Assembly: GCA_029856145.1 (NCBI GenBank)
Contig: JAHQWK010000004.1
Location: forward strand, 160,001 to 224,000
DNA length: 64,000 nucleotides
Reading direction: 5' to 3'
DNA from: Promethearchaeia archaeon
GTDB lineage: Archaea; Asgardarchaeota; Lokiarchaeia; Sigyniarchaeales; SOKP01
Below are positions 32,950 through 49,509 of the stretch, piece by piece. Made by a program: the position numbers and the translations under genes. A model generated the notes under the pieces. That model saw only the letters and a list, made by a program, of their open reading frames with translations, was not told the origin of the DNA and searched no databases. Within the stretch, counting starts at the first letter, position 1. Each line of letters opens with the position of its first letter.

Positions 32950-34827
32950 TTAAAATAAAGATTGGATAAAAGTTTTAAAAATATTATAATCGTTGATAAA
33001 TTCGTAGGAAAGGACTAAGTTGATGATTTTTGATTTGGCTGTTGGAAATATCTGTGAAAGCTCATTAGAGATTTTACCCCCTTTAAAAATAGAATCGTCT
33101 ATTATCAAATTAATAGTATCTCCAACTTTTTTAATTTTTGAATAAAATCGATCGCTTAAATCGTGTTCAGACGATATTATAATTGTTGGTTTTCCTAAAT
33201 ATGGAATAAAGTCTAAATTAAAAATTAATACTTGACCGGGGACACTGCTGAGATTTTTAAAAAATTGTTTCAATGAAGCATTAAGGGTGTTTAACTCATT
33301 TTGGTTATAAATCTCTTTTGATGGAAAGACATAATACGCTATTGATTTTTTTAGAGAATATTTCAAATCATTATATACACGATCTAATATTGGAAAAATG
33401 CTAAAATCAAAACTAAATAAAGATAAAAACGCAATTGGAAAATTGAAATCATTTACAAGAATATTACTGCTTACATTTCCACCAATTAAACTAAAATTTG
33501 TAATTTCCCTATTAACTTGAGAGATAAACGTATTCAATAAGAAATATTGAGAAAAAGCTAATGTAGCTTCAACTTTAGTTTGAATTTCATCTACCATTAC
33601 ATAAATAATATCGAATAGATTTTTTGTTAATTTTTCTTTAAGCTCTTGAATAGCAATAGTTTCAATAATAGAATGAGCTACTGTAGGACTATCAAATTCA
33701 GCAAGAGCATTAATTGCGTCCTTTATAAACTCATAAGATTGTTTTCTTAATTTTCTATTTTCTAGGTTGTTGCTATATGAATTATGGCTTAATTGAATGA
33801 TTAAATTAAAAATTTTAATTACTTCAGATTGAGAATTCTGACCATATAACTTTTTCGCTATATTAAACAAAACTCTTGTCTTTAGAAAATCATTATCTAT
33901 TTGCTCTACTAATTTCTGAGCTGATAAGGGATTAGATTCAATTACTTTACTAAATATAATGCTTATAAGATCTTCTTTAATAGAAGGATTTTGAATTAAA
34001 GATCCAGTTCTAATTGCTTGTTCAGGATTCACTAAAACTTGATCTAAAGCTAATAATTTCAATATCTTTTGTTGGAGATCTAAATCTTGTAAATTTCGAG
34101 CTACTTGGACCATTTGATTAAAATCTTTTGAGGCATAAGCTCGAATTAAATTTGTATATAAATTAATTTGTTCAGTCTTGTTGGATAGCATTAATGCGAA
34201 CTCTAAAGCTTTTAGAGGATTATTAATTGAAAGATAACCTTTTGCTAACTGCTTTATATAAGCATCTATTTTTTCAAGCAGTTGAGAAGTCGACGAACCC
34301 ATAGATCGTGCCGAATTGAATTCCTCTCTCAAAATTTTTAACTGTTGTTCTGCCTTTTTTATTGCATTTTGATCCATATTAATGAAATAATCTTCTGAAT
34401 TAAACATTTCAACCTTTTCTGTAATGGTAAAAGCATAATTTTTTAAAATTGCGTTCATTTTGCTAACTGGGACAACCCCTCTGACTTTTTGTACTTTTAC
34501 CTTATATTCAGTAATCTTAAGCCAATTTACATTAATAATTAATTTACCAAAACCATCAGCAGTTGGCTCTAACTTTAATGTTATATCCTTGGTTTCTCCC
34601 GGACCAAATTCTATATGGGTGTTAAATTCTTCGGGTTGTAATCTAATGTTTAAGTTTTCTCCCTCAAAATCGAATTTAAATGTCTCTTTTTTGCTTGAAG
34701 TGTTTACCGTCTGAATTTTGATCTCATTATCAATACCGGTAATTAATAAATTTTGCGGGAATTTTGTTATATTTAAAGAGATGATTTTATCTGCGTTTGA
34801 CATAATTCGAAGGTTCTTCTTGTTCAC
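32950..34827 (-). CDS. Hypothetical protein: beta-sandwich N-terminus, alpha-solenoid repeats, alpha/beta C-terminus
   Basis: FGPGETKDITLKL Ig-like motif; repeated helical units (A..A..I.....K..L..I). Confidence 0.55.
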   Translation of the reverse strand: MNKKNLRIMSNADKIISLNITKFPQNLLITGIDNEIKIQTVNTSSKKETFKFDFEGENLNIRLQPEEFNTHIEFGPGETKDITLKLEPTADGFGKLIINVNWLKITEYKVKVQKVRGVVPVSKMNAILKNYAFTITEKVEMFNSEDYFINMDQNAIKKAEQQLKILREEFNSARSMGSSTSQLLEKIDAYIKQLAKGYLSINNPLKALEFALMLSNKTEQINLYTNLIRAYASKDFNQMVQVARNLQDLDLQQKILKLLALDQVLVNPEQAIRTGSLIQNPSIKEDLISIIFSKVIESNPLSAQKLVEQIDNDFLKTRVLFNIAKKLYGQNSQSEVIKIFNLIIQLSHNSYSNNLENRKLRKQSYEFIKDAINALAEFDSPTVAHSIIETIAIQELKEKLTKNLFDIIYVMVDEIQTKVEATLAFSQYFLLNTFISQVNREITNFSLIGGNVSSNILVNDFNFPIAFLSLFSFDFSIFPILDRVYNDLKYSLKKSIAYYVFPSKEIYNQNELNTLNASLKQFFKNLSSVPGQVLIFNLDFIPYLGKPTIIISSEHDLSDRFYSKIKKVGDTINLIIDDSIFKGGKISNELSQIFPTAKSKIINLVLSYEFINDYNIFKTFIQSLF

Positions 34828-34926
34828 TTTATTAATACTAATCCAAAATATCTCATTATTTTTTAGGTTTAATAATTAATAATGGATTAACTAGTTTAGG
34901 TTTAATTAACAAAAAGCAATGAAGTT

Positions 34927-35694
34927 TTATTTTCCCATTCTTCGATTTCTTCTTAAATAATCTTCTATATCTTCAATTACCATTTCTTTATTATAATCAG
35001 GCCATAAATCCTCTCTAAATTTAAATTCAGCATAAGAAGAATCCCATAACAAAAATCCTGAGATTCTTGCTCCATCATCCATTCCAGTTCTAATGATGTA
35101 ATCTACTGGAGGGAAATTTTTCGTATAAAGATATTTTTTAATTAAATCCGTATTTACATCTTCTGGATTAACACCATCACTGATTATTTCCTTTACAGCG
35201 TCGACTATTTCTTCATGACCATCATACATAATACAAAGGTTTATGAAATTTTGGTCATGTTTCTTAGTAAATTCAATTAATTCTTCAATTTTTTTCTTTG
35301 CATTCTCTGGTAACATTGATATCCTACCAATAACATTGAATTTAACTTTTTCTTCTTTGACAATCGATTCATTTATTACCGTATCGACTGCTTTAATCAC
35401 TATCTTATAAATATACTCAAGTTCCTCAGGTTTACGTTTTTTCACATTTTCAAGTGATAAAATATACAAACTTAAATATTGGATCCCCGCATCAAAAAAA
35501 TCAAATAGCCTCTTTTTGAGGTTTTCATATCCGACTAGATGACCAAAATTGATATCAAGGTTTCTTTTTTTCGCCCATCGTCTGTTTTTGGTTAAAGGGG
35601 GAAATCCCTTTTAAATACCATCAATGATGAGCCCGATATGCTTAGGTAACCTATCTTTTCCAGTTTTTTTTAATTCTTCTAAAGTAGTGACCAT
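34927..35694 (-). CDS. uppS: cis-prenyltransferase (undecaprenyl/dolichyl-PP synthase) split by a 30-nt insertion; exons 35694-35616 and 35585-34927, 245 aa if spliced
   Basis: Removing 35586..35615 restores PKHIGLIIDGNRRWAK; also GH, LSLEN, YDG, DYIIRTG, RISGFLLW, YAEF, LWPDY, RNRRMGK. Confidence 0.9.
35586..35615 (-). other. Putative bulge-helix-bulge mRNA intron (30 nt) in uppS
   Basis: Sense strand TTG ATGG TA|T TTAAAAGGG ATTTC CCCCTTTAA CCAA AA|A CAG; contains an in-frame TAA. Confidence 0.75.
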
Positions 35695-35790
35695 CTAACC
35701 AATTAAAAAGTTGTATTATTTTTAATATTAATATTAAATATTAGAGTTATTAATTTTATCTAAAAATTTTTTATTATATAAATTTATGAT

Positions 35791-36095
35791 TTAAACTCTT
35801 ACCAACTTAACATCGTTGATTGGGTTTATTTTTTTAGAACAATCAGGAGGAATTTTAAATTTATAAGCGATTATCTCATCTTTCATTGACATGTCTAGCT
35901 TTTCCTCTGCCTCATAATAGATTCAATTTCATCAAAAGTGCTTATCTCATCGATGTTGATATTCAGCAATAAGAATGCATACTGAATGAACCTTGCACGA
36001 GAGATATAAATTACTGTCTCCTCATCTTCGAAGCGAAGTGATAAATATTCATTTACTATAAATTCTTGCATGTTTTCTTTGAGTAGGTTTTTCAA
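35791..36095 (-). pseudogene. Frameshifted, truncated N-terminal domain of a multicopy family I recall from Lokiarchaeal LRR proteins
   Basis: EFIVNEYLSLRFED...LLLNI...FDEIESI continues in another frame as (D)EAEEKLDMSM...IPPD and then decays. Family assignment is from recall. Confidence 0.6.
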
Positions 36096-36345
36096 TATTA
36101 TAATATTACCTATTTAAATTGAACGACTCCACAAATTTAAATCATTATCCTCATAATTAATGATAAGTGAGATAATCATATGACAAATCTTTAGATTATT
36201 ACTCTTCATACTCTTATTATTCGAAATTATCATTCATATCATTAATTTTAAATACTATTTTGCAATACTTTGGTTTAATTAGATAAGTTTTTGAATAAAT
36301 AAATATTACATTAAAGAAAAAAAAAGAAATTCAGAGATACGGTTA

Positions 36346-38022
36346 ATGCTTTCTAACGATTATTTATTTTCGAACATTGGAATTGATTCTCTATCGTTTT
36401 TTTCGCCCAGAACTTATGTTGATTTACGTGAACTTGCGAGAGAACGGAATGTAGATCCTAATAAATATACTAAGGGTCTTCTGTCTAAGGAGATTCGAAT
36501 ACCTGAAGTTGATGAAGATGTTGTTTCTTTAGGTTTAAAAGCAGGTTATAATACCTTACAAAGAGGTGGTATCTCTCCTAAGAGTATTGATGCTTTGTTT
36601 TTTGGAAACGAAACTATAACATATAGTGTCAAGTCGATCTCTAACATTTTTGCCGAAATGTTAGATATTTCTCCTAATTCGATTACTCAAGACATATATA
36701 ATGCTTGTGCAGGCGGAACAATAGCAATTCTTAACGCTATAGGTTTAATTGAAAACAATATTATTAATAAAGCCCTCATTATAAGTGCTGATATCTCATC
36801 ATATCGTATAGGTTCGCCCGGTGAGCCAACACAAGGTTCAGGAGCTATTGGATTGGTTATCTCGAAAAATCCTCGAATAGCTAAATTTAGTAAAAATTTT
36901 GGAAAGATATCAGGTAATGTTAATGACTTTTTCAGACTTCCAAATGATAAAAATGCACAAGCATATGGTAAATATTCTCAAGAGGCTTATTTTAAATTCC
37001 AGCTTGGTGCATATGATGATTTAATCAAACATATTGGGGATTTTCATGCAGATTTCTATACATTTCATGCACCATACTCGAAACTTCCGATAAAGATAAT
37101 GCAACAAATAATACTAAAGCGTTGGATTAAACATATATATGAACTACCTAAATTTGAGAGAAAAGCGATTAGATCATCCATACTTACGAAGCTTGATCAT
37201 TTTCTACATGATGTAACCGTATTACCAGAATATCTTTATTTAAAACTAAAAGAAAGAGGATATTCTTCCCCCACTTTAGAGAAATTTTCATATTGGGTGA
37301 ACACAAATGTAAAAGAACGAGTACTTCCTCAACTAAATGTTCCAATGCACTTTGGTAACATGTATAATGCTTCGCTTTGGGCTCAAGTCCTTTACCTTCT
37401 CGAAAACCATGCTCGTGTTGATGATACAATTTATTTTGGTTCATACGGCTCGGGAGCGACTTGTATTTCAGGGCTTCTAAAAGTTCAAGATGATTTTAAG
37501 AAAATTATTCAGAATGGTCCTCACATTGATGACTTTATAAATATGAAAAAGAGAAAAAGCGTTCAAGAATACGAATTAATAAAGAATGGTACTACTAAAC
37601 CAAAGATTTTATTGGGTTATATTGTTGAACATGAACAAAATAATGAAAGAGGCTTTACCCTTCATTACTGTGATGATGGGTGCCTTATCCCGAATATAAA
37701 AGGATTAGATCACTGTCCGAAAGGGCATTCAGGATATCATAAACGGTTTTTCCCTCTCTTTGCGAAGTTGAATAGCGATCCAATTGCTCAATCAGATATC
37801 AATGATCTCAAATATTTAAAAGAAGGGTTAGTAAGAGTAGCTAGTAATGTAAAAAAAGGCAGTGCTTTAGAGTATGAAATAAGAAGAGTTGAGAATGAAA
37901 ACGAGGGAAATCTAAACGCAAAAGGATTATTAAATTGGAGTCCTATATATTTGCCAATATCAGAAAAATATTTAATAAAAAGAGATAATCAAATCGAAGA
38001 TCTGCCTATTGTTCTTGAATAA
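36346..38022 (+). CDS. mvaS: Hydroxymethylglutaryl-CoA synthase with internal insertion and C-terminal Cys/His domain (DUF35-like)
   Basis: Catalytic E (GNET), NACAGGT, HAPY, GNMYNAS, SYGSG; EPTQGSGA; tail CDDGC-x10-CPKGH. Confidence 0.88.
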   Translation: MLSNDYLFSNIGIDSLSFFSPRTYVDLRELARERNVDPNKYTKGLLSKEIRIPEVDEDVVSLGLKAGYNTLQRGGISPKSIDALFFGNETITYSVKSISNIFAEMLDISPNSITQDIYNACAGGTIAILNAIGLIENNIINKALIISADISSYRIGSPGEPTQGSGAIGLVISKNPRIAKFSKNFGKISGNVNDFFRLPNDKNAQAYGKYSQEAYFKFQLGAYDDLIKHIGDFHADFYTFHAPYSKLPIKIMQQIILKRWIKHIYELPKFERKAIRSSILTKLDHFLHDVTVLPEYLYLKLKERGYSSPTLEKFSYWVNTNVKERVLPQLNVPMHFGNMYNASLWAQVLYLLENHARVDDTIYFGSYGSGATCISGLLKVQDDFKKIIQNGPHIDDFINMKKRKSVQEYELIKNGTTKPKILLGYIVEHEQNNERGFTLHYCDDGCLIPNIKGLDHCPKGHSGYHKRFFPLFAKLNSDPIAQSDINDLKYLKEGLVRVASNVKKGSALEYEIRRVENENEGNLNAKGLLNWSPIYLPISEKYLIKRDNQIEDLPIVLE

Positions 38023-38075
38023 TAAGATACTACTACTTTTTTATCCTCATAACTAATTTTACATCCGCATTCAAT

Positions 38076-38636
38076 TTATTCATCTCCCCACCTCTTAATG
38101 TCACTTTCCACCCCAATTTGGTCAAGAATCCTCCCTACAGTATGATCGATAAGTTCATCAACGGATTCTGGATTAATGTAATAAGAAGGAATTGGGGGTG
38201 CAATTACAACACCTAAATTTGCTAGTTTAAGCATATTCTCTAAATGTATTGGACTTAATGGACTTTCCCTTACAATAAGAATTAGTTTTCGTTTTTCTTT
38301 TATTGTTACATCCGCAGCTCTTGTAATTAAATTATCAGAATAACCATTAGCTATTGATGCTAAAGTTTTCATAGTACAAGGAACAATGATCATTCCATCA
38401 GTTTTATACGAACCACTAGCAGGTGGAGCAGTCAAATCATTTACATCATAATAAGTTGTAGCTAATTGTTGAATATCAGTAATTCTTATGTTAGCTTCAC
38501 TTAAAAGAACTAGTTCAGCTGCTTTAGATATGATTAATTCAGTTTCAATATTTTTTTCTTTTAAATAATTTAATAATTTCACTGCAATTGATATACCTGA
38601 GGCACCAGTTATCGCAATAAGAATCATAATTCTCAC
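38076..38636 (-). CDS. ubiX: Flavin prenyltransferase (prFMN synthase)
   Basis: AITGASG, ASGS, PCTMKTLA, RAADVTIKE, RESP, HLENM. Confidence 0.95.
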   Translation of the reverse strand: MRIMILIAITGASGISIAVKLLNYLKEKNIETELIISKAAELVLLSEANIRITDIQQLATTYYDVNDLTAPPASGSYKTDGMIIVPCTMKTLASIANGYSDNLITRAADVTIKEKRKLILIVRESPLSPIHLENMLKLANLGVVIAPPIPSYYINPESVDELIDHTVGRILDQIGVESDIKRWGDE

Positions 38637-38763
38637 AGATATTTGATTGTAAATTTAAATTTCTTCTAAGTATTAATTAATTAGGAATAATAATTATTTT
38701 TTGTATTAATTGTAAAAATGTATAATAAAAAATACTTTTCTAAGATAAAATCGATTGTTAATT

Positions 38764-40044
38764 ATGAGTGGATATAATTCTGAAATTTCTGGTTTTTATA
38801 AATTATCAATAAAAAAACGCAGAGAACTATTATCTGAACTTATTAATTTTAATGAAAATGATATAAAACTTCTGGAGAATTTAGGTTACTTTACAGAAAC
38901 TCAAATTGATACCTTTATAGAGAATGTAATTGGTTCTTATCAATTACCAATTGGAATTGCTTGTAATTTTAAAGTAAACAATAAGGACTATTTAATCCCT
39001 ATGGTTATTGAAGAACCTTCAGTTGTAGCAGCAGCCTCAAATGCAGCAAAAATAGCTAGAAAACATGGAGGTTTTCACTCTGAGAATGTTAAATCAGTAA
39101 TGATCTCTCAAATTCAAATAACTAACGTAAAAGATATTGAATCTGCTAAAAGGAAATTAGAAGAAAATAAGGAAAGCATTTTAAAATACGCAAATGAAAA
39201 AGATCCTCTCTTAATAAAATTAGGTGGCGGAGCTTTTGATTTTGAAATTCGAGAGTTAACAACGAGAAGAGGAGAGATGTTGATTGTTCATTTATTAGTT
39301 GATGTTTTAGATGCCATGGGGGCGAATGTGGTAAATACTATGGCTGAAACCATTAGTCCGTATATAGAAGAAATATCTGGAGGCAAGATATATCTTAGAA
39401 TTGTATCCAATTTGGCAACTCATCGAATAGCGAAAAGTAAAGCAACATTTGATAAGGATTTATTAGGTGGAGACGAAGTAGTAGAAGGGATCTTAAATGC
39501 ATATGAATTTGCACTAGCAGATCCTTATAGAGCTACAACCCATAATAAAGGAATAATGAATGGAATTATAGCTTTAACGATGGCTACAGGAAACGATACG
39601 CGAGCTATTGAATCTGGGGCACACGCATATGCTGCATTGAATGGACAATATTCTCCATTAACCAAATTTCAGATTGATTCTAATGGAAATTTAGTAGGAG
39701 AAATAGAAGTCCCTCTTGCTCTAGGCATTATTGGAGGGATGACTAAAATACATCCTATGGCTCGACTAACTTTAAAAATTTTAAATATCAAAAGTGCAAA
39801 TGAACTTTCTCAAGTAGCAGCTGCGCTTGGTTTAGCTCAAAATGTGGCCGCCTTAAGAGCCTTAGCTTCAGAAGGAATCCAAGAAGGTCACATGGTTCTC
39901 CATTCGAGAAATATTGCAAAACTTGCAGGCGTACCTGAAAAGTTAATAGAAAAAGTAGCAAGCAAATTAGTAGAAGATAAGAAAATTAGAGTTGACCATG
40001 CGAAAGAAATTTTAAAAAGAATACTTAATAATGAAAACCTTTAG
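38764..40044 (+). CDS. hmgA: HMG-CoA reductase, class II
   Basis: ENVIG, EEPSVVAA, DAMGAN, THNKGIMNG, GNDTRA, GIQEGHM. Confidence 0.95.
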   Translation: MSGYNSEISGFYKLSIKKRRELLSELINFNENDIKLLENLGYFTETQIDTFIENVIGSYQLPIGIACNFKVNNKDYLIPMVIEEPSVVAAASNAAKIARKHGGFHSENVKSVMISQIQITNVKDIESAKRKLEENKESILKYANEKDPLLIKLGGGAFDFEIRELTTRRGEMLIVHLLVDVLDAMGANVVNTMAETISPYIEEISGGKIYLRIVSNLATHRIAKSKATFDKDLLGGDEVVEGILNAYEFALADPYRATTHNKGIMNGIIALTMATGNDTRAIESGAHAYAALNGQYSPLTKFQIDSNGNLVGEIEVPLALGIIGGMTKIHPMARLTLKILNIKSANELSQVAAALGLAQNVAALRALASEGIQEGHMVLHSRNIAKLAGVPEKLIEKVASKLVEDKKIRVDHAKEILKRILNNENL

Positions 40045-40111
40045 TTTTATAAAATTTGTTTCTGTAACTCAAAATATTAGTCAATTAGATCGAAATAAGT
40101 TTATGAGATGA

Positions 40112-41422
40112 ATGAAATTTATGGGCTTTAGAGAATATATAAATCAAATTGATGAAGAAGGTCTTCTTCGAAAGGTTGAAATTGAAGTATCGAAAAATTT
40201 AGAGATTCCCGGAATTTTGAAAGAGATTGAACCAACTCCAGTTATGTTTAATCATGTTAGAGAATCGGAATTTCGTGTAATTGGTAATGTTTTCTGTACT
40301 AAAAATGTAATTGCTTCATATTTCGGTGTTACTCCTGCAGATCTCATACCAATGCTCTCAAAAGCGATTTCAGAACGTTCAGAACCAGAAGTTGTTTCTA
40401 GGGCTCCTTGTCAAGAAGTCATTGAATCAGGAGTTGATTTAGATAATCTTCCAATTTTATTCCATTGTGAAAAAGATGGTGGAAATTATATTAGTTCTGC
40501 TGTTGTTATTACTCGAGATCCTGATTATGGACAAAATATGGATTTTCATCGAGCAATGCAATTTTCAAAAGGAAAATTTTCAACTCGAATAGTAAGGGGT
40601 CGTCATTTTCACAAATTTTTAGAAAAAAATGGTGAATTAGACGTAGCTTTTTGTATAGGAAATACTCCAAACATTCTAATTGCTGGAGCAACTTCTGTAG
40701 ATATTGGAGTTGATGAATTACAAATAGCAAATGCATTAGAACCTATTAAAGTAGTTAAAGCAAGTTCAGTAGATCTTCTAATACCTGCAGAAGCAGAATT
40801 CATTTTAGAAGGACGTGTTTATTTAGAAGAAAAACATTCAGAAGGTCCTTTTGTTGATCTAACTGAGACCTATGACACGATTAGAGAAGAACCCGTCTTT
40901 GAAGTAAAAAAAATCACTCATAGAAAAGATGCGATTTGGCAAGCTTTATTACCAGGTGCACTTGAACATAAAATATTAATGGGGATGCCTCGAGAGCCAA
41001 CTATATTTAATAAAGTAAAGGAAGCAGGAGTAAAGTGTTTAGATGTAAATGTAAATCCTGGAGGTTGTTCATGGTTACATGCAATAGTCCAGATTGATAA
41101 AAAAACAGAAGAAGACGGGAAAAAAGCGATATTTGGTACCTTTACAGGGCATAGAAGTTGTAAACATGTTTTTATTGTTGATAAAGATATTAATATTTAT
41201 GATCCTCTCTCTGTAGAATGGGCGATGGCAACTCGCTTCCAAGGAGATACCAGAATGATAGTGAAAAATAAAGAACCAGGCAGTAGTTTGGACCCCAGTG
41301 CTGAACCAAGCAGTAAGTTAACTACCAAAATTGGGTTTGATTTAACTAAACCACTTGTCGTTAAAGGAAAGAGTTTTGATATTGCAGAATTTCCAAAAGT
41401 TGATCTGAACAAATATTTTTAA
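40112..41422 (+). CDS. ubiD: UbiD-family decarboxylase; by context anhydromevalonate-phosphate decarboxylase
   Basis: DGGNY, EGPFVD, VDKDINI, WAMATR, GSSLDPS, KIGFDLTKP; lies within the mevalonate operon next to ubiX. Confidence 0.88.
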   Translation: MKFMGFREYINQIDEEGLLRKVEIEVSKNLEIPGILKEIEPTPVMFNHVRESEFRVIGNVFCTKNVIASYFGVTPADLIPMLSKAISERSEPEVVSRAPCQEVIESGVDLDNLPILFHCEKDGGNYISSAVVITRDPDYGQNMDFHRAMQFSKGKFSTRIVRGRHFHKFLEKNGELDVAFCIGNTPNILIAGATSVDIGVDELQIANALEPIKVVKASSVDLLIPAEAEFILEGRVYLEEKHSEGPFVDLTETYDTIREEPVFEVKKITHRKDAIWQALLPGALEHKILMGMPREPTIFNKVKEAGVKCLDVNVNPGGCSWLHAIVQIDKKTEEDGKKAIFGTFTGHRSCKHVFIVDKDINIYDPLSVEWAMATRFQGDTRMIVKNKEPGSSLDPSAEPSSKLTTKIGFDLTKPLVVKGKSFDIAEFPKVDLNKYF

Positions 41423-41439
41423 GATGAGGAAAGGAAAAA

Positions 41440-42633
41440 ATGAAATTAACATCAGAAGAACAGGACACGCTGGATGGCAAGCACGGTAAAGCTGCCCAAA
41501 AATCAATGGAAATTTTAACCACATTGGGCGAAATATTTGATGCTGAATGCATGATCGATGTATATGGCGTTCAGATAGCTGGAGTATCGTACGCCAATCT
41601 AGGGGAAGCAGGTTTGGAATTCTTAAGCGAAATGGCAGAAGATGGAAAAGTTAGAGTTTTAGCGACATTAAATCCAGCAGGAATGGATCGTGAAAATTGG
41701 CAAGCTTTAGGAATAGATGAAGAATTTGCTAAAAATCAGAATCGAGCAATTGATGCATTTGCCAAAATGGGTATAATTACAACATGCTCTTGTACCCCAT
41801 ATTTAATTGGAAATGCTCCACACTACGGTCAACATCTTGCATGGGCTGAAAGTAGTGCTGTATGTTATGCAAACTCAGTTATAGGTGCTAGAACTAACCG
41901 TGAGGGTGGTCCAAGTGCTTTAGCTTCAGCTATAACCGGAAAAACGCCAAAATATGGTTATCATTTAGATGAACATCGTCATGGAGAGGTATTAGTTAAA
42001 ATAAATGCTCCAATTAAAGGTACTGATGGATTTGGTGTTTTGGGAAAAATAATTGGGGATAAATTAGTCGAGTTAGGAAAGAAAATTCCTTATATAACAG
42101 GAATTCCTTCTGCTACAGTTGAAGAACTCAAATCTTTTTGTGCATCAGTTGCGACTTACGGTGGAACAGCTTTATTCCATATGAAAGGTATAACTCCAGA
42201 ATATAATAATTATCAGAAACCTAGTGATATTGTTTTTGAAATTAATCAAGATGACTTAGATAGAACGCGATTGGAACTTATTGATGATGATATTGAGATA
42301 GATTTTGTTAGTATAGGGTGCCCTCATGCTTCAATTCACGAAATTGCAAAGATTGCGAGCTTATTGAAGGGAAAGAAAGTAAAAAAAGAATTTTGGATCA
42401 CGACTGCTCGACCTACAAAAAGAATTGCTGATGAAGCGGGTTATTCTAAAATAATTGAAAATGCAGGAGCGAAATTTGCAGCAGATACTTGTTGTGTTGT
42501 TGCTCCAATTAAAGAACGTTTTAAAGGAATTATGGTAGATTCAGCAAAAGCTTGTTATTATGGTCGTGCAAAGAACAAATTTAAAGTAAAAATTGGTTCA
42601 GTTGAAGAATGTGTTGAGGAGGCAATAAAATGA
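41440..42633 (+). CDS. Aconitase X large subunit; by context phosphomevalonate dehydratase large subunit
   Basis: TLNP, CSCTPY, WAESSA, GARTNREGG, GCPH, DTCCVVAP, DSAKACYY. Confidence 0.9.
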   Translation: MKLTSEEQDTLDGKHGKAAQKSMEILTTLGEIFDAECMIDVYGVQIAGVSYANLGEAGLEFLSEMAEDGKVRVLATLNPAGMDRENWQALGIDEEFAKNQNRAIDAFAKMGIITTCSCTPYLIGNAPHYGQHLAWAESSAVCYANSVIGARTNREGGPSALASAITGKTPKYGYHLDEHRHGEVLVKINAPIKGTDGFGVLGKIIGDKLVELGKKIPYITGIPSATVEELKSFCASVATYGGTALFHMKGITPEYNNYQKPSDIVFEINQDDLDRTRLELIDDDIEIDFVSIGCPHASIHEIAKIASLLKGKKVKKEFWITTARPTKRIADEAGYSKIIENAGAKFAADTCCVVAPIKERFKGIMVDSAKACYYGRAKNKFKVKIGSVEECVEEAIK

Positions 42634-43019
42634 AATTAGCTGGTAGAAAAATCTTTAAAGGTACTGCTGAGGCAGAAGCAATTGTTACACAAGATGGAAT
42701 TTCTTTTTATGGTGGTATTGACCCTGATACAGGAAAAGTAGTTGAAGTTGGCCATGAGCTTGAAGGACAATCGATATCAGGAAAAGTGTTGGTTTTTCCA
42801 ACCGGTAAAGGATCAACAGTGGGATCTTATACCATGTATAGAATGAAAAAGAATAACACTGCTCCTGTTGCAATCGTTAATAAAGAAATCGATACAATTG
42901 TTGCAGTAGGGTGTATAATCAGCGAAATTCCTTGTGTGGATAAAATTGATATAAGTAATATCAAAACAGGACAAAAAATTATTGTTAATGGTTCTGAAGG
43001 AACTGTGGAGGTAAAATAA
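42630..43019 (+). CDS. Aconitase X swivel domain (DUF126); phosphomevalonate dehydratase small subunit
   Basis: ISFYGGIDPDTG, GKVLVFPTGKGSTVGSY; overlaps the large-subunit stop. Confidence 0.9.
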   Translation: MKLAGRKIFKGTAEAEAIVTQDGISFYGGIDPDTGKVVEVGHELEGQSISGKVLVFPTGKGSTVGSYTMYRMKKNNTAPVAIVNKEIDTIVAVGCIISEIPCVDKIDISNIKTGQKIIVNGSEGTVEVK

Positions 43020-43986
43020 ATGGGAGTCGGAAAAGGATATGGAAAGACCATACTTTTTGGTGAAATTATTTTCCTATTTCAGGAATAAACACTATCATTT
43101 TGTTGTGTATGGTCTTCCAGCAATCGCATCAGCTTTAGGATCCTCTACGACTGCTGAAGTTAAAGTAGTCAAGGGTAATGGTTGGACAGTTAATGATCAA
43201 AGACTTGCAACACCAGGTTACAAAAAGAAGAAATTCAATGAGGCAATACAATCAATTAAAAATGTAATTGAACATTTGAGAGTGGATACCGAGAATAAAA
43301 AACTTGAAATAAAATTTGCGGGGGATCTGATTGCCGCTAGCGGAGTAGGTGCTTCAGCTGCTCAATGTACATCACTTTCCCGAGCTTTAAATGACACGTT
43401 TAATCTCAAATTAACTGAAAAAAAGATAAATGAGGCAGCTTATGAAGGAGAGAAAGCCTATCATGGTACTCCTTCAGGTATTGATAACACAGCCTCTACT
43501 TATGGTGGTTTAATTTGGTTTGTTAAAAACTTGAGAGGGGGGGAAAATACGATGGAACTTCTACAGTCACCAAAGAAAATGCCCTTAGTAATAATAAATT
43601 CAGGAATAACAGCTTCTACAACAGAAGTAGTAGCTGATGTTCGACGTTTAAAAGAGGAATCTCCTTTAAAATTTGAAAAAATCTTTAATAATTATGAAAA
43701 ATTAGCATTAGCAGCAAAAAAAGCCTTACTTGAAGGAAATATTAACACTGTTGGTGACCTAATGAATCAAAACCACAAATTACTACAAGATATAACGGTA
43801 TCTGGAGAGATTAATGATAAATTAGTCGAAATCTCCTTACGAAATGGGGCTAAAGGTGCTAAAATGACAGGAACAGGGCGAGGTGGTTTGGTCATAGCAT
43901 TAGCTGAAAATGAAGAAATTCAAGATGAAATCGCCAAAACTATTGAAAAAAAAGGATATAATGCCTGGAAAACCATGATTGGATGA
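43020..43986 (+). CDS. mvk: Mevalonate kinase split by a 31-nt insertion; exons 43020-43064 and 43096-43986, 311 aa if spliced
   Basis: ATG directly follows the upstream TAA. Removing 43065..43095 restores GKTILFGEHFVVYG; also SGVGASAA, HGTPSGIDN, GAKMTGTGRGG. Confidence 0.9.
43065..43095 (+). other. Putative bulge-helix-bulge mRNA intron (31 nt) in mvk
   Basis: T GGTG AA|A TTATTTTCCT ATTTC AGGAATAAA CACT AT|C A; GGTG pairs with CACT; frameshifts the gene and has TAA in the exon-1 frame. Confidence 0.78.
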
Positions 43987-45892
43987 GTGGGAGTTAAAAT
44001 TGAAAAGTGATAATGAGATATTTCTATTAAAGTTAGGAGGTAGTTTATTAACTGATAAGAATAAACCTTTTTCTCTTAGAGAAGAGGTTTTAGAGAACTG
44101 TCTTAATCAAATTATTGAAAGTAAAAAATCAATTATTTTAATTCATGGAGGCGGATCATTTGGGCATCCAATTGCTAAAAAATATCAAATTTCTGAAGGA
44201 CTAAATGATACTGTCAAGGATCAAATAATTGGACTTTCAAAAACCCATGAGGTTATGAATAAATTTAATTCTATAATAATAAACAAATTATTAGATAAAG
44301 GATATCCCGCAATTTCGATTCAGCCTTCTAGTATTTTTGTAAAAGATTTTAATCAAATAAAAATAAATACAATAGAACCTATTGAAAAATTACTTGAACT
44401 TGGAATAATCCCGGTTTTATATGGTGATATTGTTTTAAGTTGGGATTCTTATTTTTCAATTCTTTCAGGAGATCAAATTATTTTAAAACTATGTGAAAAA
44501 ATTCAAAATTTTAAGATTTCAAAAGTCATATTTGCAATTGAAAAGGATGGTATCTTCATAAAAGACAATGGAAACGAAAAACTGGCTTTAAAATTAAGTT
44601 CCAACGATTTAAATAATCTAAAATTGGCTGAATTAGATCAAAAAATAGATGTTACTGGGGGGATAAAAGGTAAACTAGAAACAATTAAAGAAATAATAAA
44701 ATTTAATATCCCTGTTCAAATTGTTAATGGGCTTAAGAATAAAAATATTCTAAAGGCATTACTTAATCAATCTATAGAATGTACTAATATTAAAGTGCCA
44801 TCTGATAAAAGATTTGAAAATAAATTATATAATAGGAAGATAGAACACATAGAAATCCCTTTAAAGTATAATGTGCAACATTCAAAGAACTATTTTGATG
44901 ATATAAATCTACTTCATCATCCCCTACCGGAGTATGAATTAGAGGATATTGATCTTTCTGTTGATTTTTTTAAAAAAGAAATTTCAGCTCCTATATGTAT
45001 TGCAGCAATTACAGGTGGCCATGAAATTTCTAAAGCAATTAATAATATCTTAGCAAATGCTGCAAGTTCAGAAAATATTATTATGAGTGTTGGATCTCAA
45101 AGAATAGGCTTGGAGGATCCTTCCACCATTGATTCATTTAAAGTTGTACGTGATGTTGCCCCTAATATTCCAATAATAGGAAATTTGGGAGTTGGACAGT
45201 TATGTGATCCTAATTTTAATTTAGATCATTTTAATAAATGCATTGAGATGATTAATGCTGATGTTATGGCTATACATTTGAACGCTTTACATGAACTTAC
45301 TCAAAGTGATGGTAATCTTTCTTATAAAAATTTTGAAGAAATATTTAAAGAAATAAGAAAAAATCTGAAAATTCCAATTATAGCTAAAGAAGTGGGATCA
45401 GGGTTTAATAAGGAATTAGCGTTAAAACTCGATTCATTAGGAATTGATGGATTTGACGTTGGAGGAATGGGGGGTACTAGTTTTGCTGCAATAGAGTCAA
45501 TACGCGATGATTCTAGCTATGAAGTATATACTCGAAAGATTGCAGACACTTTTCGAGAATGGGGCATTCCAACACCCGTAAGTATAATCAATGTTAGAAA
45601 AGCCACTAAAAAACTTATAATAGCAACAGGAGGCTTAAGAAATGGTCTAGATATAGCCAAAGCAATCTCAATTGGAGCAAATATCGGGGGATTTGCATTT
45701 AAGTTTTTAAAAACAGCATGGCAAGATTATAAAAATAATACTTTGTCAAATACAATCAAGGAGATAAAAACGCTGAAACAAGAATTAAGATCCTCACTAT
45801 GGTTAATGAATATAGATAATATTGATAAGCTAATAGGTAATGACGATAAAAGGGTTTTATTGGGCAAATTATATCAATGGATAAATCAATGA
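43979..45892 (+). CDS. fni: Fusion of isopentenyl-phosphate kinase and type 2 isopentenyl-diphosphate isomerase
   Basis: N-terminal LKLGGS, HGGGSFGH, YGD, SGD, DVTGGI; C-terminal RKIEH, ITGG, GSQR, HLN, KEVGSG, GGTSF, ATGGLRNGLD. The start could be TTG at 44000. Confidence 0.9.
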   Translation: MDEWELKLKSDNEIFLLKLGGSLLTDKNKPFSLREEVLENCLNQIIESKKSIILIHGGGSFGHPIAKKYQISEGLNDTVKDQIIGLSKTHEVMNKFNSIIINKLLDKGYPAISIQPSSIFVKDFNQIKINTIEPIEKLLELGIIPVLYGDIVLSWDSYFSILSGDQIILKLCEKIQNFKISKVIFAIEKDGIFIKDNGNEKLALKLSSNDLNNLKLAELDQKIDVTGGIKGKLETIKEIIKFNIPVQIVNGLKNKNILKALLNQSIECTNIKVPSDKRFENKLYNRKIEHIEIPLKYNVQHSKNYFDDINLLHHPLPEYELEDIDLSVDFFKKEISAPICIAAITGGHEISKAINNILANAASSENIIMSVGSQRIGLEDPSTIDSFKVVRDVAPNIPIIGNLGVGQLCDPNFNLDHFNKCIEMINADVMAIHLNALHELTQSDGNLSYKNFEEIFKEIRKNLKIPIIAKEVGSGFNKELALKLDSLGIDGFDVGGMGGTSFAAIESIRDDSSYEVYTRKIADTFREWGIPTPVSIINVRKATKKLIIATGGLRNGLDIAKAISIGANIGGFAFKFLKTAWQDYKNNTLSNTIKEIKTLKQELRSSLWLMNIDNIDKLIGNDDKRVLLGKLYQWINQ

Positions 45893-45915
45893 GATTTCTA
45901 CAAAAGATGCAATTT

Positions 45916-46137
45916 TTAATATCTTGTATCAAAAATTTTATTCACTAGCTGGTAGCCTCTATTATTTTCATCCGAAAAGATACATCTATGCCTAATATCA
46001 TTCTTTTTTTGGGAATATTTCATACATCCCCAACATTGTACTTTAGCAAAACTGAACTTCTTTTTTTTATTTTGTTCTCTTACCTCTTCGCATATCTTTA
46101 ATGCAATTTCTTCTGGAATAAGGTCCTTTTCTTTCAT
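45916..46137 (-). CDS. Small Cys-containing hypothetical protein
   Basis: 73 aa with C...CWGC...C pattern. Confidence 0.6.
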   Translation of the reverse strand: MKEKDLIPEEIALKICEEVREQNKKKKFSFAKVQCWGCMKYSQKKNDIRHRCIFSDENNRGYQLVNKIFDTRY

Positions 46138-47363: not shown

Positions 47364-48431
47364 TTAGAATTTTCTCTCTCTCACAAAATTTAATAAATCT
47401 TCATAGAATTCCATTTCAGATTGTTTAGTCTCACTTTTTAACCTATTTAAAGATAATCTTGCTTCTTGAAAATACGAATTTGCTAAAGCTTTGCATGATT
47501 TAATGACATCTGCTTTAAGAAACAAATCTTTAACACTTTGAACATCTTTATTCGTCATATCTGGCTTTTCTATTAATTCCTCAAGTTTAATCTTTTCCCT
47601 ATCCTCTAATTTATTCAAAGCATCAATCAGTAGACAAGTTTTCTTACCCTCTCTGATATCTCCATCTATTGGTTTACCAGTTACTTTTTCATCACCAAAT
47701 GTTCCTAAGATATCATCAATTATCTGGAAAATAATACCAAGATTTATACCATAAATCGAAAGATTCTTTAATATCTTCTCATTAACTTTCGCATAAGTTG
47801 CACCAATTAAAATTGATTTTTCCAATAATGCTCCAGTTTTAAGTGAAATCATCCTAATATAATCTGAAATTGTAAGATCTTTCTGGTTCACCATATCAGT
47901 TTCAATTAGTACACCATTAGCAATATCAATAAATCCTTGTTCATAATATTTAATGGCATTTAAATTCAAATCATTATTAAAATTGTTAAAAAGATAAGCT
48001 TCTAATCCTAAAAAAAAAGCTGAATCCCCTCCAATAATTCCTATTGAATTACCAAAATCAATATCGTTCATTTTCTTCAAATTGTATCGTTGATGATAAT
48101 TGCGGAATCTAAAGTGAAATGCAGGTTTTCCCCTTCTAAAATTATCTTTATCGATAATGTCGTCATGGATCAATGAGGCATTATGAAGGAATTCCACCCC
48201 AACACTTGGTAAAACAATTTTTTCATCTATTTTCTCATTAAAAGCATTAAAGCTAGCAATACATAATAATGGCCTGATTCTCTTTCCACCTGATAGAAAG
48301 TAATCCTTTAATTCTGAGTAGTAATCCTTTAAAAATGGGTTTTTTTTACTATTCAGTTTCCTATCATAGATCGATTTTATCGCGTTATTTATCTTAGGAA
48401 TATATTTCTTTGAGTATTCGATAAATTTCAT
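47364..48431 (-). CDS. idsA: trans-polyprenyl (geranylgeranyl) diphosphate synthase
   Basis: GGKRIRP, LIHDDIIDKDNFRRG, KTG, FQIIDDILG, DIREGKKT. Confidence 0.92.
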   Translation of the reverse strand: MKFIEYSKKYIPKINNAIKSIYDRKLNSKKNPFLKDYYSELKDYFLSGGKRIRPLLCIASFNAFNEKIDEKIVLPSVGVEFLHNASLIHDDIIDKDNFRRGKPAFHFRFRNYHQRYNLKKMNDIDFGNSIGIIGGDSAFFLGLEAYLFNNFNNDLNLNAIKYYEQGFIDIANGVLIETDMVNQKDLTISDYIRMISLKTGALLEKSILIGATYAKVNEKILKNLSIYGINLGIIFQIIDDILGTFGDEKVTGKPIDGDIREGKKTCLLIDALNKLEDREKIKLEELIEKPDMTNKDVQSVKDLFLKADVIKSCKALANSYFQEARLSLNRLKSETKQSEMEFYEDLLNFVRERKF

Positions 48432-48591: not shown

Positions 48592-49509
48592 TCACCAAAT
48601 TAATTCAAAAACAATTTTAAATGTAGCTATTATATGAGGTTGTAATGTAATTTCGAGCTTATTTTGTGCATAATTATTAACTTTTGCTTTAATATCATTT
48701 TTTGGTTTTTCTTCAAGAAAGTTTACAATTATAACATTTTTAATAGATATTTTCTCGTAAAATGTTAAAATCGCTTTTTGAGGAATAGAAGATATATTAT
48801 AAAATCTTATAATAAGAGAATCTCCTTCTTCAGCTTGTTTTAATGCACTTAAAACGACACTTTTATTATCAATTTCAAGAAATCTAAAAATCGGTGGAAG
48901 GTAAGATTCAAATTGGTTCTTATTAGGTTTAAAAAGATAGGATAACACTCCAGTTGGCTTTAATACAACTTTATTTGACATTCTAAAGGGACTTTGAGCC
49001 ATTGCTGGAAAGATTGGTTTAAGCGGATTGTTAAATTCCTTTCCTTTAAGGTGTACTTCTGAATCTAACCAGTTTGATTCTGATGAAGTAACTACTGCTA
49101 ATTCAAATGAATATTTGCTGAGACATTGCGCACCTGGAGTACTAAAACCTGGACCTGCATGAGACATTCTAGACGCAAAATCATCACGGGATAGCCACTC
49201 AATACATCGTAAAAGAGTTATTACAAATGTAATTGTATTATCCTCATTTATTTTAGCTTCATATTCTGGCAAGCCCTTATTTAATACTGCAAAAGTGCTT
49301 GAATCATTACTAATGGAGACTTCTAAATTATCCTCTAAAGGAATGGTTTGGCCATCTAATACAAAATTACTATATTCAGGATCAGTTTTTAGAATATCCA
49401 ATAATTTATCCATCATAATTACAAGCCTAGCTCGAAATTCTTGAAAAGTGAGATACCACTCTCTATCCCAATGAGTTTCTGGAACGATTATGATATTATT
49501 TGCTTTCAT
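48592..49509 (-). pseudogene. GH38 alpha-mannosidase with a large in-frame internal deletion
   Basis: N-terminal THWDREWY...LDGQ...LEDNLEV joins directly to the C-terminal domain (AVLNKGLPEYE, ITLLRC, TPGAQC, LSALKQAE, IIRFYN); most of the catalytic and middle domains is absent. Confidence 0.75.

What the first reader, a model, noticed from the sequence alone, without database searches (positions are those of the whole stretch)
34927..43986. A shared micro-intron family in isoprenoid genes: possible splicing-gated lipid synthesis
Seen: both inserts are 30-31 nt, lie within the first 27 codons, interrupt a strongly conserved motif, carry TAA in the exon-1 frame, end in a 4-mer complementary to the exon just upstream, and share the pentaloop ATTTC although their stems differ. 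Both genes belong to one pathway cluster. Inference: a family of EndA-dependent mRNA micro-introns, with a loop that may be recognised by a protein or reflect common origin. They could act as a post-transcriptional switch, conceptually like non-spliceosomal HAC1/XBP1 splicing, or be tolerated mobile RNA elements. Pipelines would label such genes truncated, so the system could be widespread and overlooked. I cannot verify novelty without a literature search.
Basis: inference. Interest (0 to 1): 0.92.

Follow-up and report, generated by a model that had tools for sequence, protein, structure and literature searches.

The report
Genome-wide tRNA-type mini-intron family in Asgard
Two lipid-pathway genes of this Asgard archaeon are split by 30-base inserts shaped like tRNA introns, but they are two of at least ten look-alike mini-introns in unrelated, mostly housekeeping genes, so this is a genome-wide family of probably spliced mRNA introns rather than a lipid-specific switch.

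Summary
Both inserts are real: uppS (30 nt, 35586-35615, minus strand) and mevalonate kinase (31 nt, 43065-43095). Each breaks a catalytic motif and forms a bulge-helix-bulge (BHB) whose predicted cuts restore the frame. Congeners keep them at the same sites (mvk 18/27, uppS 7/30) with compensatory changes. The genome encodes two EndA subunits and RtcB. Splicing by the tRNA machinery is very likely, but I found no RNA data.

The isoprenoid switch is not supported. The genome holds at least eight more 28-32 nt introns (pyrG, rps3, rpl11, aIF2-gamma, Elf1, cspA, an FAD oxidase, a hexapeptide-repeat gene). The other eight pathway genes are intact, and the two introns do not co-occur significantly (Fisher p=0.35). 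The ATTTC loop is family-wide: 5 of 10 introns here, consensus R-(A/U)-U-U-C, as conserved as or more conserved than the upper stem. Close intron-plus/minus allele pairs have mosaic flanks, pointing to gain or loss by homologous recombination.

In the papers searched, only cbf5 and one Haloferax 5' UTR are known archaeal mRNA BHB introns.

The parts
35616..35694 (-). uppS exon 1 (26 codons + 1 nt; ends in the IIDG of the catalytic motif)
35586..35615 (-). uppS BHB mini-intron, 30 nt, in-frame TAA; central helix ATGG/CCAA, bulges TA|T and AA|A, 9-bp stem, loop ATTTC
34927..35585 (-). uppS exon 2 (cis-prenyltransferase, PF01255 positions 6-219); only copy of the family found in the genome
43020..43064 (+). 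mvk exon 1 (15 codons, ends GKTILFGE)
43065..43095 (+). mvk BHB mini-intron, 31 nt, frameshift plus TAA; central helix GGTG/CACT, bulges AA|A and AT|C, loop ATTTC
43096..43986 (+). mvk exon 2 (GHMP kinase N and C domains)
36346..38022 (+). HMG-CoA synthase, intact
38076..38636 (-). UbiX-type flavin prenyltransferase (by sequence), intact
38755..40044 (+). HMG-CoA reductase (by sequence), intact
40112..41422 (+). UbiD-type decarboxylase (by sequence), intact
41440..43019 (+). Aconitase X large and small subunits, intact
43979..45892 (+). Isopentenyl phosphate kinase / type 2 IPP isomerase fusion, intact
47364..48431 (-). Geranylgeranyl diphosphate synthase (by sequence), intact

Best explanation
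The two inserts belong to a family of 28-32 nt bulge-helix-bulge introns in protein-coding genes of a Lokiarchaeia-type (Promethearchaeota) Asgard genus. Shown: each intron plus its flanks can fold into an exon-exon helix, a 4-bp central helix between two 3-nt bulges, and a roughly 9-bp AU-rich stem capped by an R-(A/U)-U-U-C loop; cuts after the second base of each bulge restore the reading frame exactly; unspliced RNA stops within 7 codons. Inferred: the two-subunit EndA cuts, RtcB joins, and only then can UppS, Mvk and at least eight other proteins be made. The introns are most likely tolerated, constitutively spliced passengers in conserved motifs, where only precise removal is viable; they are not a pathway switch. 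Inferred, weaker: the loop is under selection as a recognition or folding element, and intron-bearing and intron-less alleles replace one another between lineages by homologous recombination that carries flanking exon DNA along. How an intron first reaches a new site is not shown.
For: Frame repair in the BHB register. Same site and length in congeners: mvk 18/27, uppS 7/30, pyrG 7 of 29, Elf1 11 of 29, aIF2-gamma 3 of 27. Compensatory pairs, including the central helix (mvk C-G to U-A in this genome; uppS U-A to C-G in L046). Exon-exon pairing is stronger in intron-bearing than intron-less alleles at all five sites (mvk -15.1 vs -6.2, uppS -12.6 vs -6.4 kcal/mol). 0 of 103 control indels are BHB-like. 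Two EndA paralogues, one with the catalytic Y-H-K pattern and one lacking the His, plus RtcB. uppS is the only PF01255 gene found. Ten introns in the genome; five share the exact apex ATTTC. Close discordant allele pairs diverge 0.18 at the junction against 0.10 further on; concordant pairs do not; three individual mosaics.
Against: No spliced RNA seen: no contig with the spliced mvk junction in intron-type context in JGI metagenomes, and the intron-less look-alikes traced were other alleles or of unknown source. Several central helices are weak (2-3 of 4 pairs in uppS and Elf1 orthologues) and the mvk outer helix has one pair next to the bulge, so cleavage needs a relaxed-specificity EndA, which was not assayed. 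Allele pairs are not independent, and low-coverage metagenome contigs can be chimeric. The census is a lower bound.
Confidence: 0.85

Rival explanations
1. The introns are real and act as a dedicated splicing switch on isoprenoid synthesis.
For: Two of ten introns lie in one ten-gene cluster (P=4e-4 if the set had been fixed in advance). Both sit near the 5' end and both enzymes are single-copy. A regulatory role was proposed, not shown, for the cbf5 intron (PMC2738675).
Against: The set was chosen after the fact; genome-wide P=0.17 for any such pair. Eight others are in translation, transcription, nucleotide and other genes. Eight pathway genes are intact. Presence is patchy and uncoupled: both 6, mvk only 10, uppS only 1, neither 8 (two uppS states inferred from open-frame length). 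Close relatives live without either intron.
Confidence: 0.06
2. The family is a shared regulatory layer: one factor reading the common loop sets the splicing rate of all ten mRNAs and so tunes growth genes together.
For: Uniform length and apex loop at unrelated sites; the last three loop positions are about 90% conserved in mvk orthologues while upper-stem positions are 50-80%. Targets are growth-related, and 8 of 10 sites lie within about the first 45 codons. This genome's tRNA introns vary in length and do not obviously share the loop.
Against: Each site is present in only about 10-65% of congeners and in different combinations, which fits turnover better than a maintained regulon. No binding factor identified. 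The loop could aid folding or cleavage without regulating anything. This reading is an add-on to the best explanation, not an alternative to splicing.
Confidence: 0.15
3. The inserts are skipped during translation (ribosome hopping or frameshifting), or an upstream ATG reading through the insert gives a working 315-aa Mvk.
For: A hairpin and an early stop are features of T4 gene 60 hopping (own knowledge). An ATG-started frame runs through the mvk insert in this genome.
Against: Take-off and landing codons match in none of 26 alleles. The read-through frame is closed by stops in 8 of 19 mvk alleles, varies freely and lacks the GKxILFGE motif shared with solved mevalonate kinases. Hopping does not explain the conserved bulge and central-helix geometry.
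Confidence: 0.04
4. The genes are pseudogenes broken by a MITE-like hairpin, or the inserts are assembly errors.
For: The genome is a metagenome assembly with 5% contamination; one gene nearby is internally deleted.
Against: Same inserts in many independent assemblies with compensatory changes. Exon 1 motifs stay conserved in all intron-bearing alleles. Single-copy essential genes. No target-site duplication seen, and the best-scoring hairpins genome-wide are all frame-restoring.
Confidence: 0.02

Closest known systems
cbf5 pre-mRNA intron of Desulfurococcales and Sulfolobales (Watanabe 2002; Yokobori 2009, PMC2738675)
   Same: Short BHB intron (16-44 nt there) inside a catalytic motif of a protein-coding gene, often with a relaxed motif, cut by hetero-oligomeric EndA, lost in some lineages, missed by annotation.
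   Different: One gene and one site, with splicing shown by cDNA. Here at least ten genes in one genome, a narrow 28-32 nt range, a shared apex loop, patchy presence within one genus, an Asgard lineage, and no RNA proof.
HVO_1309 5' UTR BHB intron of Haloferax volcanii (Schwarz 2020, PMC7714728)
   Same: mRNA substrate of the tRNA splicing endonuclease.
   Different: Lies in the untranslated leader and does not break a reading frame; single case.
Non-canonical tRNA introns of Asgard archaea (bioRxiv 10.64898/2026.10.13.758758)
   Same: Same group, BHB boundaries, repeated gains, two-subunit EndA, unknown route of arrival, none yet shown spliced in an Asgard cell.
   Different: tRNA hosts only; the preprint never mentions mRNA, gives a median length of 22-23 nt, and says Asgard tRNA introns almost never form shared families, whereas these mRNA introns share one architecture.
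HAC1/XBP1 non-spliceosomal splicing (Ire1 plus tRNA ligase; own knowledge)
   Same: Short intron removed by a protein endonuclease and joined by a tRNA ligase (RtcB in animals), changing the reading frame.
   Different: Ire1 cuts two separate stem-loops on a stress signal. Here the motif is BHB, the enzyme would be the housekeeping EndA, and there is no evidence of a signal.

Membership tests
Archaeal BHB (EndA-spliced) introns | Two 3-nt bulges on opposite strands of a 4-bp helix, partly exon and partly intron | tested here: met
   mvk 4/4 pairs, uppS 3/4 (relaxed form); inner stem starts right after bulge 1
Archaeal BHB (EndA-spliced) introns | Cuts after the second base of each bulge give the mature sequence | tested here: met
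   This register restores FGE-HFVVY and DG-NRRW, and the motifs at eight more genes
Archaeal BHB (EndA-spliced) introns | Structure kept by compensatory change | tested here: met
   mvk 6 pairs with two-sided change, covariation 0/500 shuffles; uppS 4 pairs, 0/500 for the score but 29/500 for the pair count
Archaeal BHB (EndA-spliced) introns | Host encodes EndA and an RNA ligase | tested here: met
   Two PF01974 genes (one with, one without the catalytic His) and one RtcB
Archaeal BHB (EndA-spliced) introns | Excision and ligation shown in RNA or in vitro | not testable with these tools
   Indirect searches for spliced contigs gave nothing usable
Pathway-specific splicing switch (HAC1/XBP1-like) | Introns concentrated in, and co-inherited across, one pathway | tested here: not met
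   8 of 10 introns lie elsewhere; P=0.17 for proximity; Fisher p=0.35 for co-occurrence
Pathway-specific splicing switch (HAC1/XBP1-like) | Splicing ratio changes with a signal | not testable with these tools
   No expression data
MITE or repeat-type hairpin insertion | Copies at arbitrary or intergenic sites without exon pairing | tested here: not met
   Top five structure-only hits are all frame-restoring introns with exon pairing; stems differ in sequence between sites
Translational bypassing (T4 gene 60 type) | Matching take-off and landing codons | tested here: not met
   0 of 26 alleles
Curated RNA families (Rfam 15) | Covariance-model match | tested here: not met
   No match above chance in 34000-46000

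The most novel reading that the evidence does not exclude
This Asgard genus carries a self-propagating family of uniform mini-introns in protein-coding genes, recognised through a shared loop by a dedicated factor on top of EndA and RtcB, so that expression of many core genes depends on one mRNA-splicing step: a small, non-spliceosomal forerunner of genome-wide mRNA splicing in close archaeal relatives of eukaryotes.
Probability: 0.2. Interest if true: 0.92.

Novelty: new variant of a known kind. Interest (0 to 1): 0.74.

Why it matters
The papers I could search know one archaeal coding-region BHB intron (cbf5) and one in a 5' UTR. At least ten in one Asgard genome, in essential genes and with a common build, would make mRNA splicing by the tRNA machinery a routine step in this lineage. 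It would also explain truncated or mis-started database entries for core proteins, some of them marker genes (rps3, rpl11, pyrG). Close relatives that differ by one intron, with mosaic flanks, give a handle on the open question of how BHB introns spread and are lost.

Tried and rejected
Loose de novo BHB-plus-ORF scans did not beat their nulls in total counts; only the top-ranked hits stood out, and my first nulls (equal shifts) were not independent of true introns. A first script timed out. Spliced-junction scan of JGI metagenomes for mvk: 0 hits; the number of unspliced copies there is unknown, so this has no control. Elf1 scan: 8 contigs with the intron and 2 long DNA contigs without, which are intron-less alleles, not RNA. 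Full-length mvk and rpl11 proteins on short contigs turned out to be intron-less alleles, lacked DNA, or had an unknown sample type. The mvk gene tree is poorly resolved: 6 changes, only 2 forced by strong branches, so gains and losses cannot be counted. No covariance model was built because stems differ between sites; a position-weight plus folding score was used. tRNA intron listing was rough. Literature searches found no report of Asgard mRNA BHB introns; most subscription journals are not in the library. For the homology census I sampled 800 kb of G022 and 400 kb of G005 as regions, not whole genomes. Rejected: hopping, alternative start, MITE, pseudogene, isoprenoid-specific switch.
Full report
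Setting. The window is C3:160001-224000 of a 3.55 Mb, 97% complete assembly. Homologues are named Promethearchaeota or Lokiarchaeota. The stretch is an archaeal mevalonate cluster: uppS on the minus strand, then HMG-CoA synthase, UbiX, HMG-CoA reductase, UbiD, two AcnX subunits, mevalonate kinase, an IPK-IDI fusion and, further on, GGPP synthase.

Observation. uppS starts at 35694 and stops two codons into a 30-nt insert; removing it restores DG-NRRW and 245 aa. mvk starts at 43020; 31 nt separate FGE from HFVVYG. In both, the frame-restoring cut points equal the canonical BHB cuts: exon 1 ends with a 4-nt helix strand plus 2 nt, the intron begins with one bulge base and a stem, and ends with the partner strand plus 2 nt. 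Both apex loops are ATTTC.

Comparative evidence. The mvk insert is at the same site in 18 of 27 congeneric orthologues (16 of 31 nt, 2 of 30 nt with stops) and cleanly absent in 9. The uppS insert is in 7 of 30, always 30 nt. The named structure is 87% paired in both alignments, against 31-52% when slid; the covariation score exceeds all 500 shuffles, though relatedness inflates that test. Synonymous exon sites follow the intron: exon-exon duplexes are about twice as stable in intron-bearing alleles at five genes (alleles are not independent). Every intron-bearing allele stops within 7 codons in the exon-1 frame, no allele has matching hop codons, and the alternative read-through frame of mvk is broken in 8 of 19 alleles. 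Exon 1 carries the GK-ILFGEH motif that aligns with solved mevalonate kinases. uppS is intact in all 17 genomes of two sister families where it was found.

Machinery. Two EndA paralogues and one RtcB are present. One EndA has the Y, H and K pattern of a catalytic subunit and the other lacks the His (residue roles from own knowledge). This fits the two-subunit type that cleaves relaxed motifs (PMC2738675; PMC5829648 abstract).

Genome census. A BHB-plus-ORF scan put pyrG, rps3, mvk, aIF2-gamma, an FAD oxidase and uppS as its six best hits and Elf1 ninth (identities by Pfam). A homology scan with 1189 ORFs sampled from relatives, covering 694 kb of this genome, added a hexapeptide-repeat membrane gene on C32. 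A motif scan added rpl11, and a model trained on other genomes added cspA (weaker score, no orthologue check). That model, using no ORF information, ranked five frame-restoring introns first among 495 candidates. The ten introns are 28-32 nt. pyrG, Elf1 and aIF2-gamma introns recur in 7, 11 and 3 congeners; rpl11 recurs in four other contigs. rps3, the FAD oxidase, cspA and the C32 gene were not checked for the intron in orthologues. In the same loci 0 of 103 ordinary in-frame indels were BHB-like. The reverse scan found one more such intron in G005 and none in 487 kb of G022, so the load differs between species. Ten is a lower bound: introns shared with the reference genomes or without a stop escape these methods.

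The pathway idea. The other eight isoprenoid genes match intact orthologues end to end. Two of ten in a pre-chosen ten-gene set would be unlikely (4e-4), but the set was not pre-chosen: any two of ten random sites lie within 7.5 kb with P=0.17. Across 25 genomes the two introns occur as both 6, mvk only 10, uppS only 1, neither 8 (Fisher p=0.35). A lipid-specific switch is not supported.

The loop. ATTTC caps five of the ten introns (mvk, uppS, pyrG, Elf1, rpl11); others have GATTC, GGCTC, AATTA and AAATC-like loops. A rough binomial chance is 3e-9, if sites were independent. Among orthologues the loop varies around R-(A/U)-U-U-C, and in mvk its last three bases are more conserved than the adjoining stem. 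An unpaired loop that drifts no faster than its stem points to selection, so I favour a working element over mere common descent (about 60:40, inference). tRNA introns here range from about 16 to 43 nt and do not obviously share it.

Gain and loss. Among allele pairs under 12.5% distal divergence, those that differ in intron state diverge 0.18 within 27 nt of the junction against 0.10 distally; concordant pairs show 0.11/0.10 and 0.07/0.08. Selection on the exon helix explains part of this. It does not explain three mosaics: an mvk pair 5% apart overall with 11 mismatches in the 30 nt before the intron; an intron-less Elf1 allele identical to this genome's flanks over about 100 nt but about 15% different elsewhere; and an rpl11 pair that switches from over 20% to about 3% divergence 30 nt after the intron. 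Homologous recombination between lineages is the simplest reading; chimeric assembly is not excluded for single cases, and background mosaicism was only roughly controlled.

What is known. PMC7714728 states that cbf5 was the only other mRNA BHB intron reported before the Haloferax 5' UTR case. PMC2738675 notes predicted but unconfirmed introns in other genes. The 2026 preprint on Asgard tRNA introns does not treat mRNA and says none has been shown spliced in an Asgard cell. Earlier notes of this scan report the same mvk and uppS introns and several others in Asgard genomes; I used them as leads and tested rps3, aIF2-gamma, the FAD oxidase and rpl11 here. One note claims RNA evidence for a cdhA intron, which I did not check.

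Verdict. Observation confirmed. Works like, and by every feature testable here is, an archaeal BHB intron of the cbf5 kind (0.85). New in number, uniform build and lineage. The isoprenoid switch is unlikely (0.06). Interest 0.74.

Noticed in passing
window 48592-49509 (-): A 305-aa ORF whose ends match the start and end of a 930-aa protein in relatives (glycoside hydrolase 38-like by its N-terminal motif); the middle is missing here.
   Followed up: no
L261:1430-1530 (rpl11 of GCA_048938855.1): This rpl11 lacks this genome's intron but has two other inserts about 20 nt apart, so rpl11 has at least three intron sites.
   Followed up: partly
L224:1070-1100 (G005): A 30-nt BHB intron with loop AATCT next to a CxxC motif of a 140-aa protein that is intact in this genome.
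   Followed up: no
window 43020-43986: This mevalonate kinase type matches the trypanosomatid-like solved structure 2hfs (E=1e-76) far better than archaeal ones (E about 1e-30). Some congeners (G006, G028, G020) carry a 33-36% identical kinase near uppS instead, suggesting gene replacement.
   Followed up: no
G000 C2, C3, C7-C9, C17-C22 tRNA loci: Many tRNA genes carry non-canonical introns; ARAGORN finds only 19 tRNA genes in the genome.
   Followed up: partly
all ten intron sites: Eight of ten lie within about the first 45 codons, and most interrupt nucleotide-binding, metal-binding or RNA-binding motifs. Detection bias not excluded.
   Followed up: partly
window 35895-36095 (-): Short 66-aa ORF between uppS and HMG-CoA synthase that looks like a gene remnant.
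   Followed up: no
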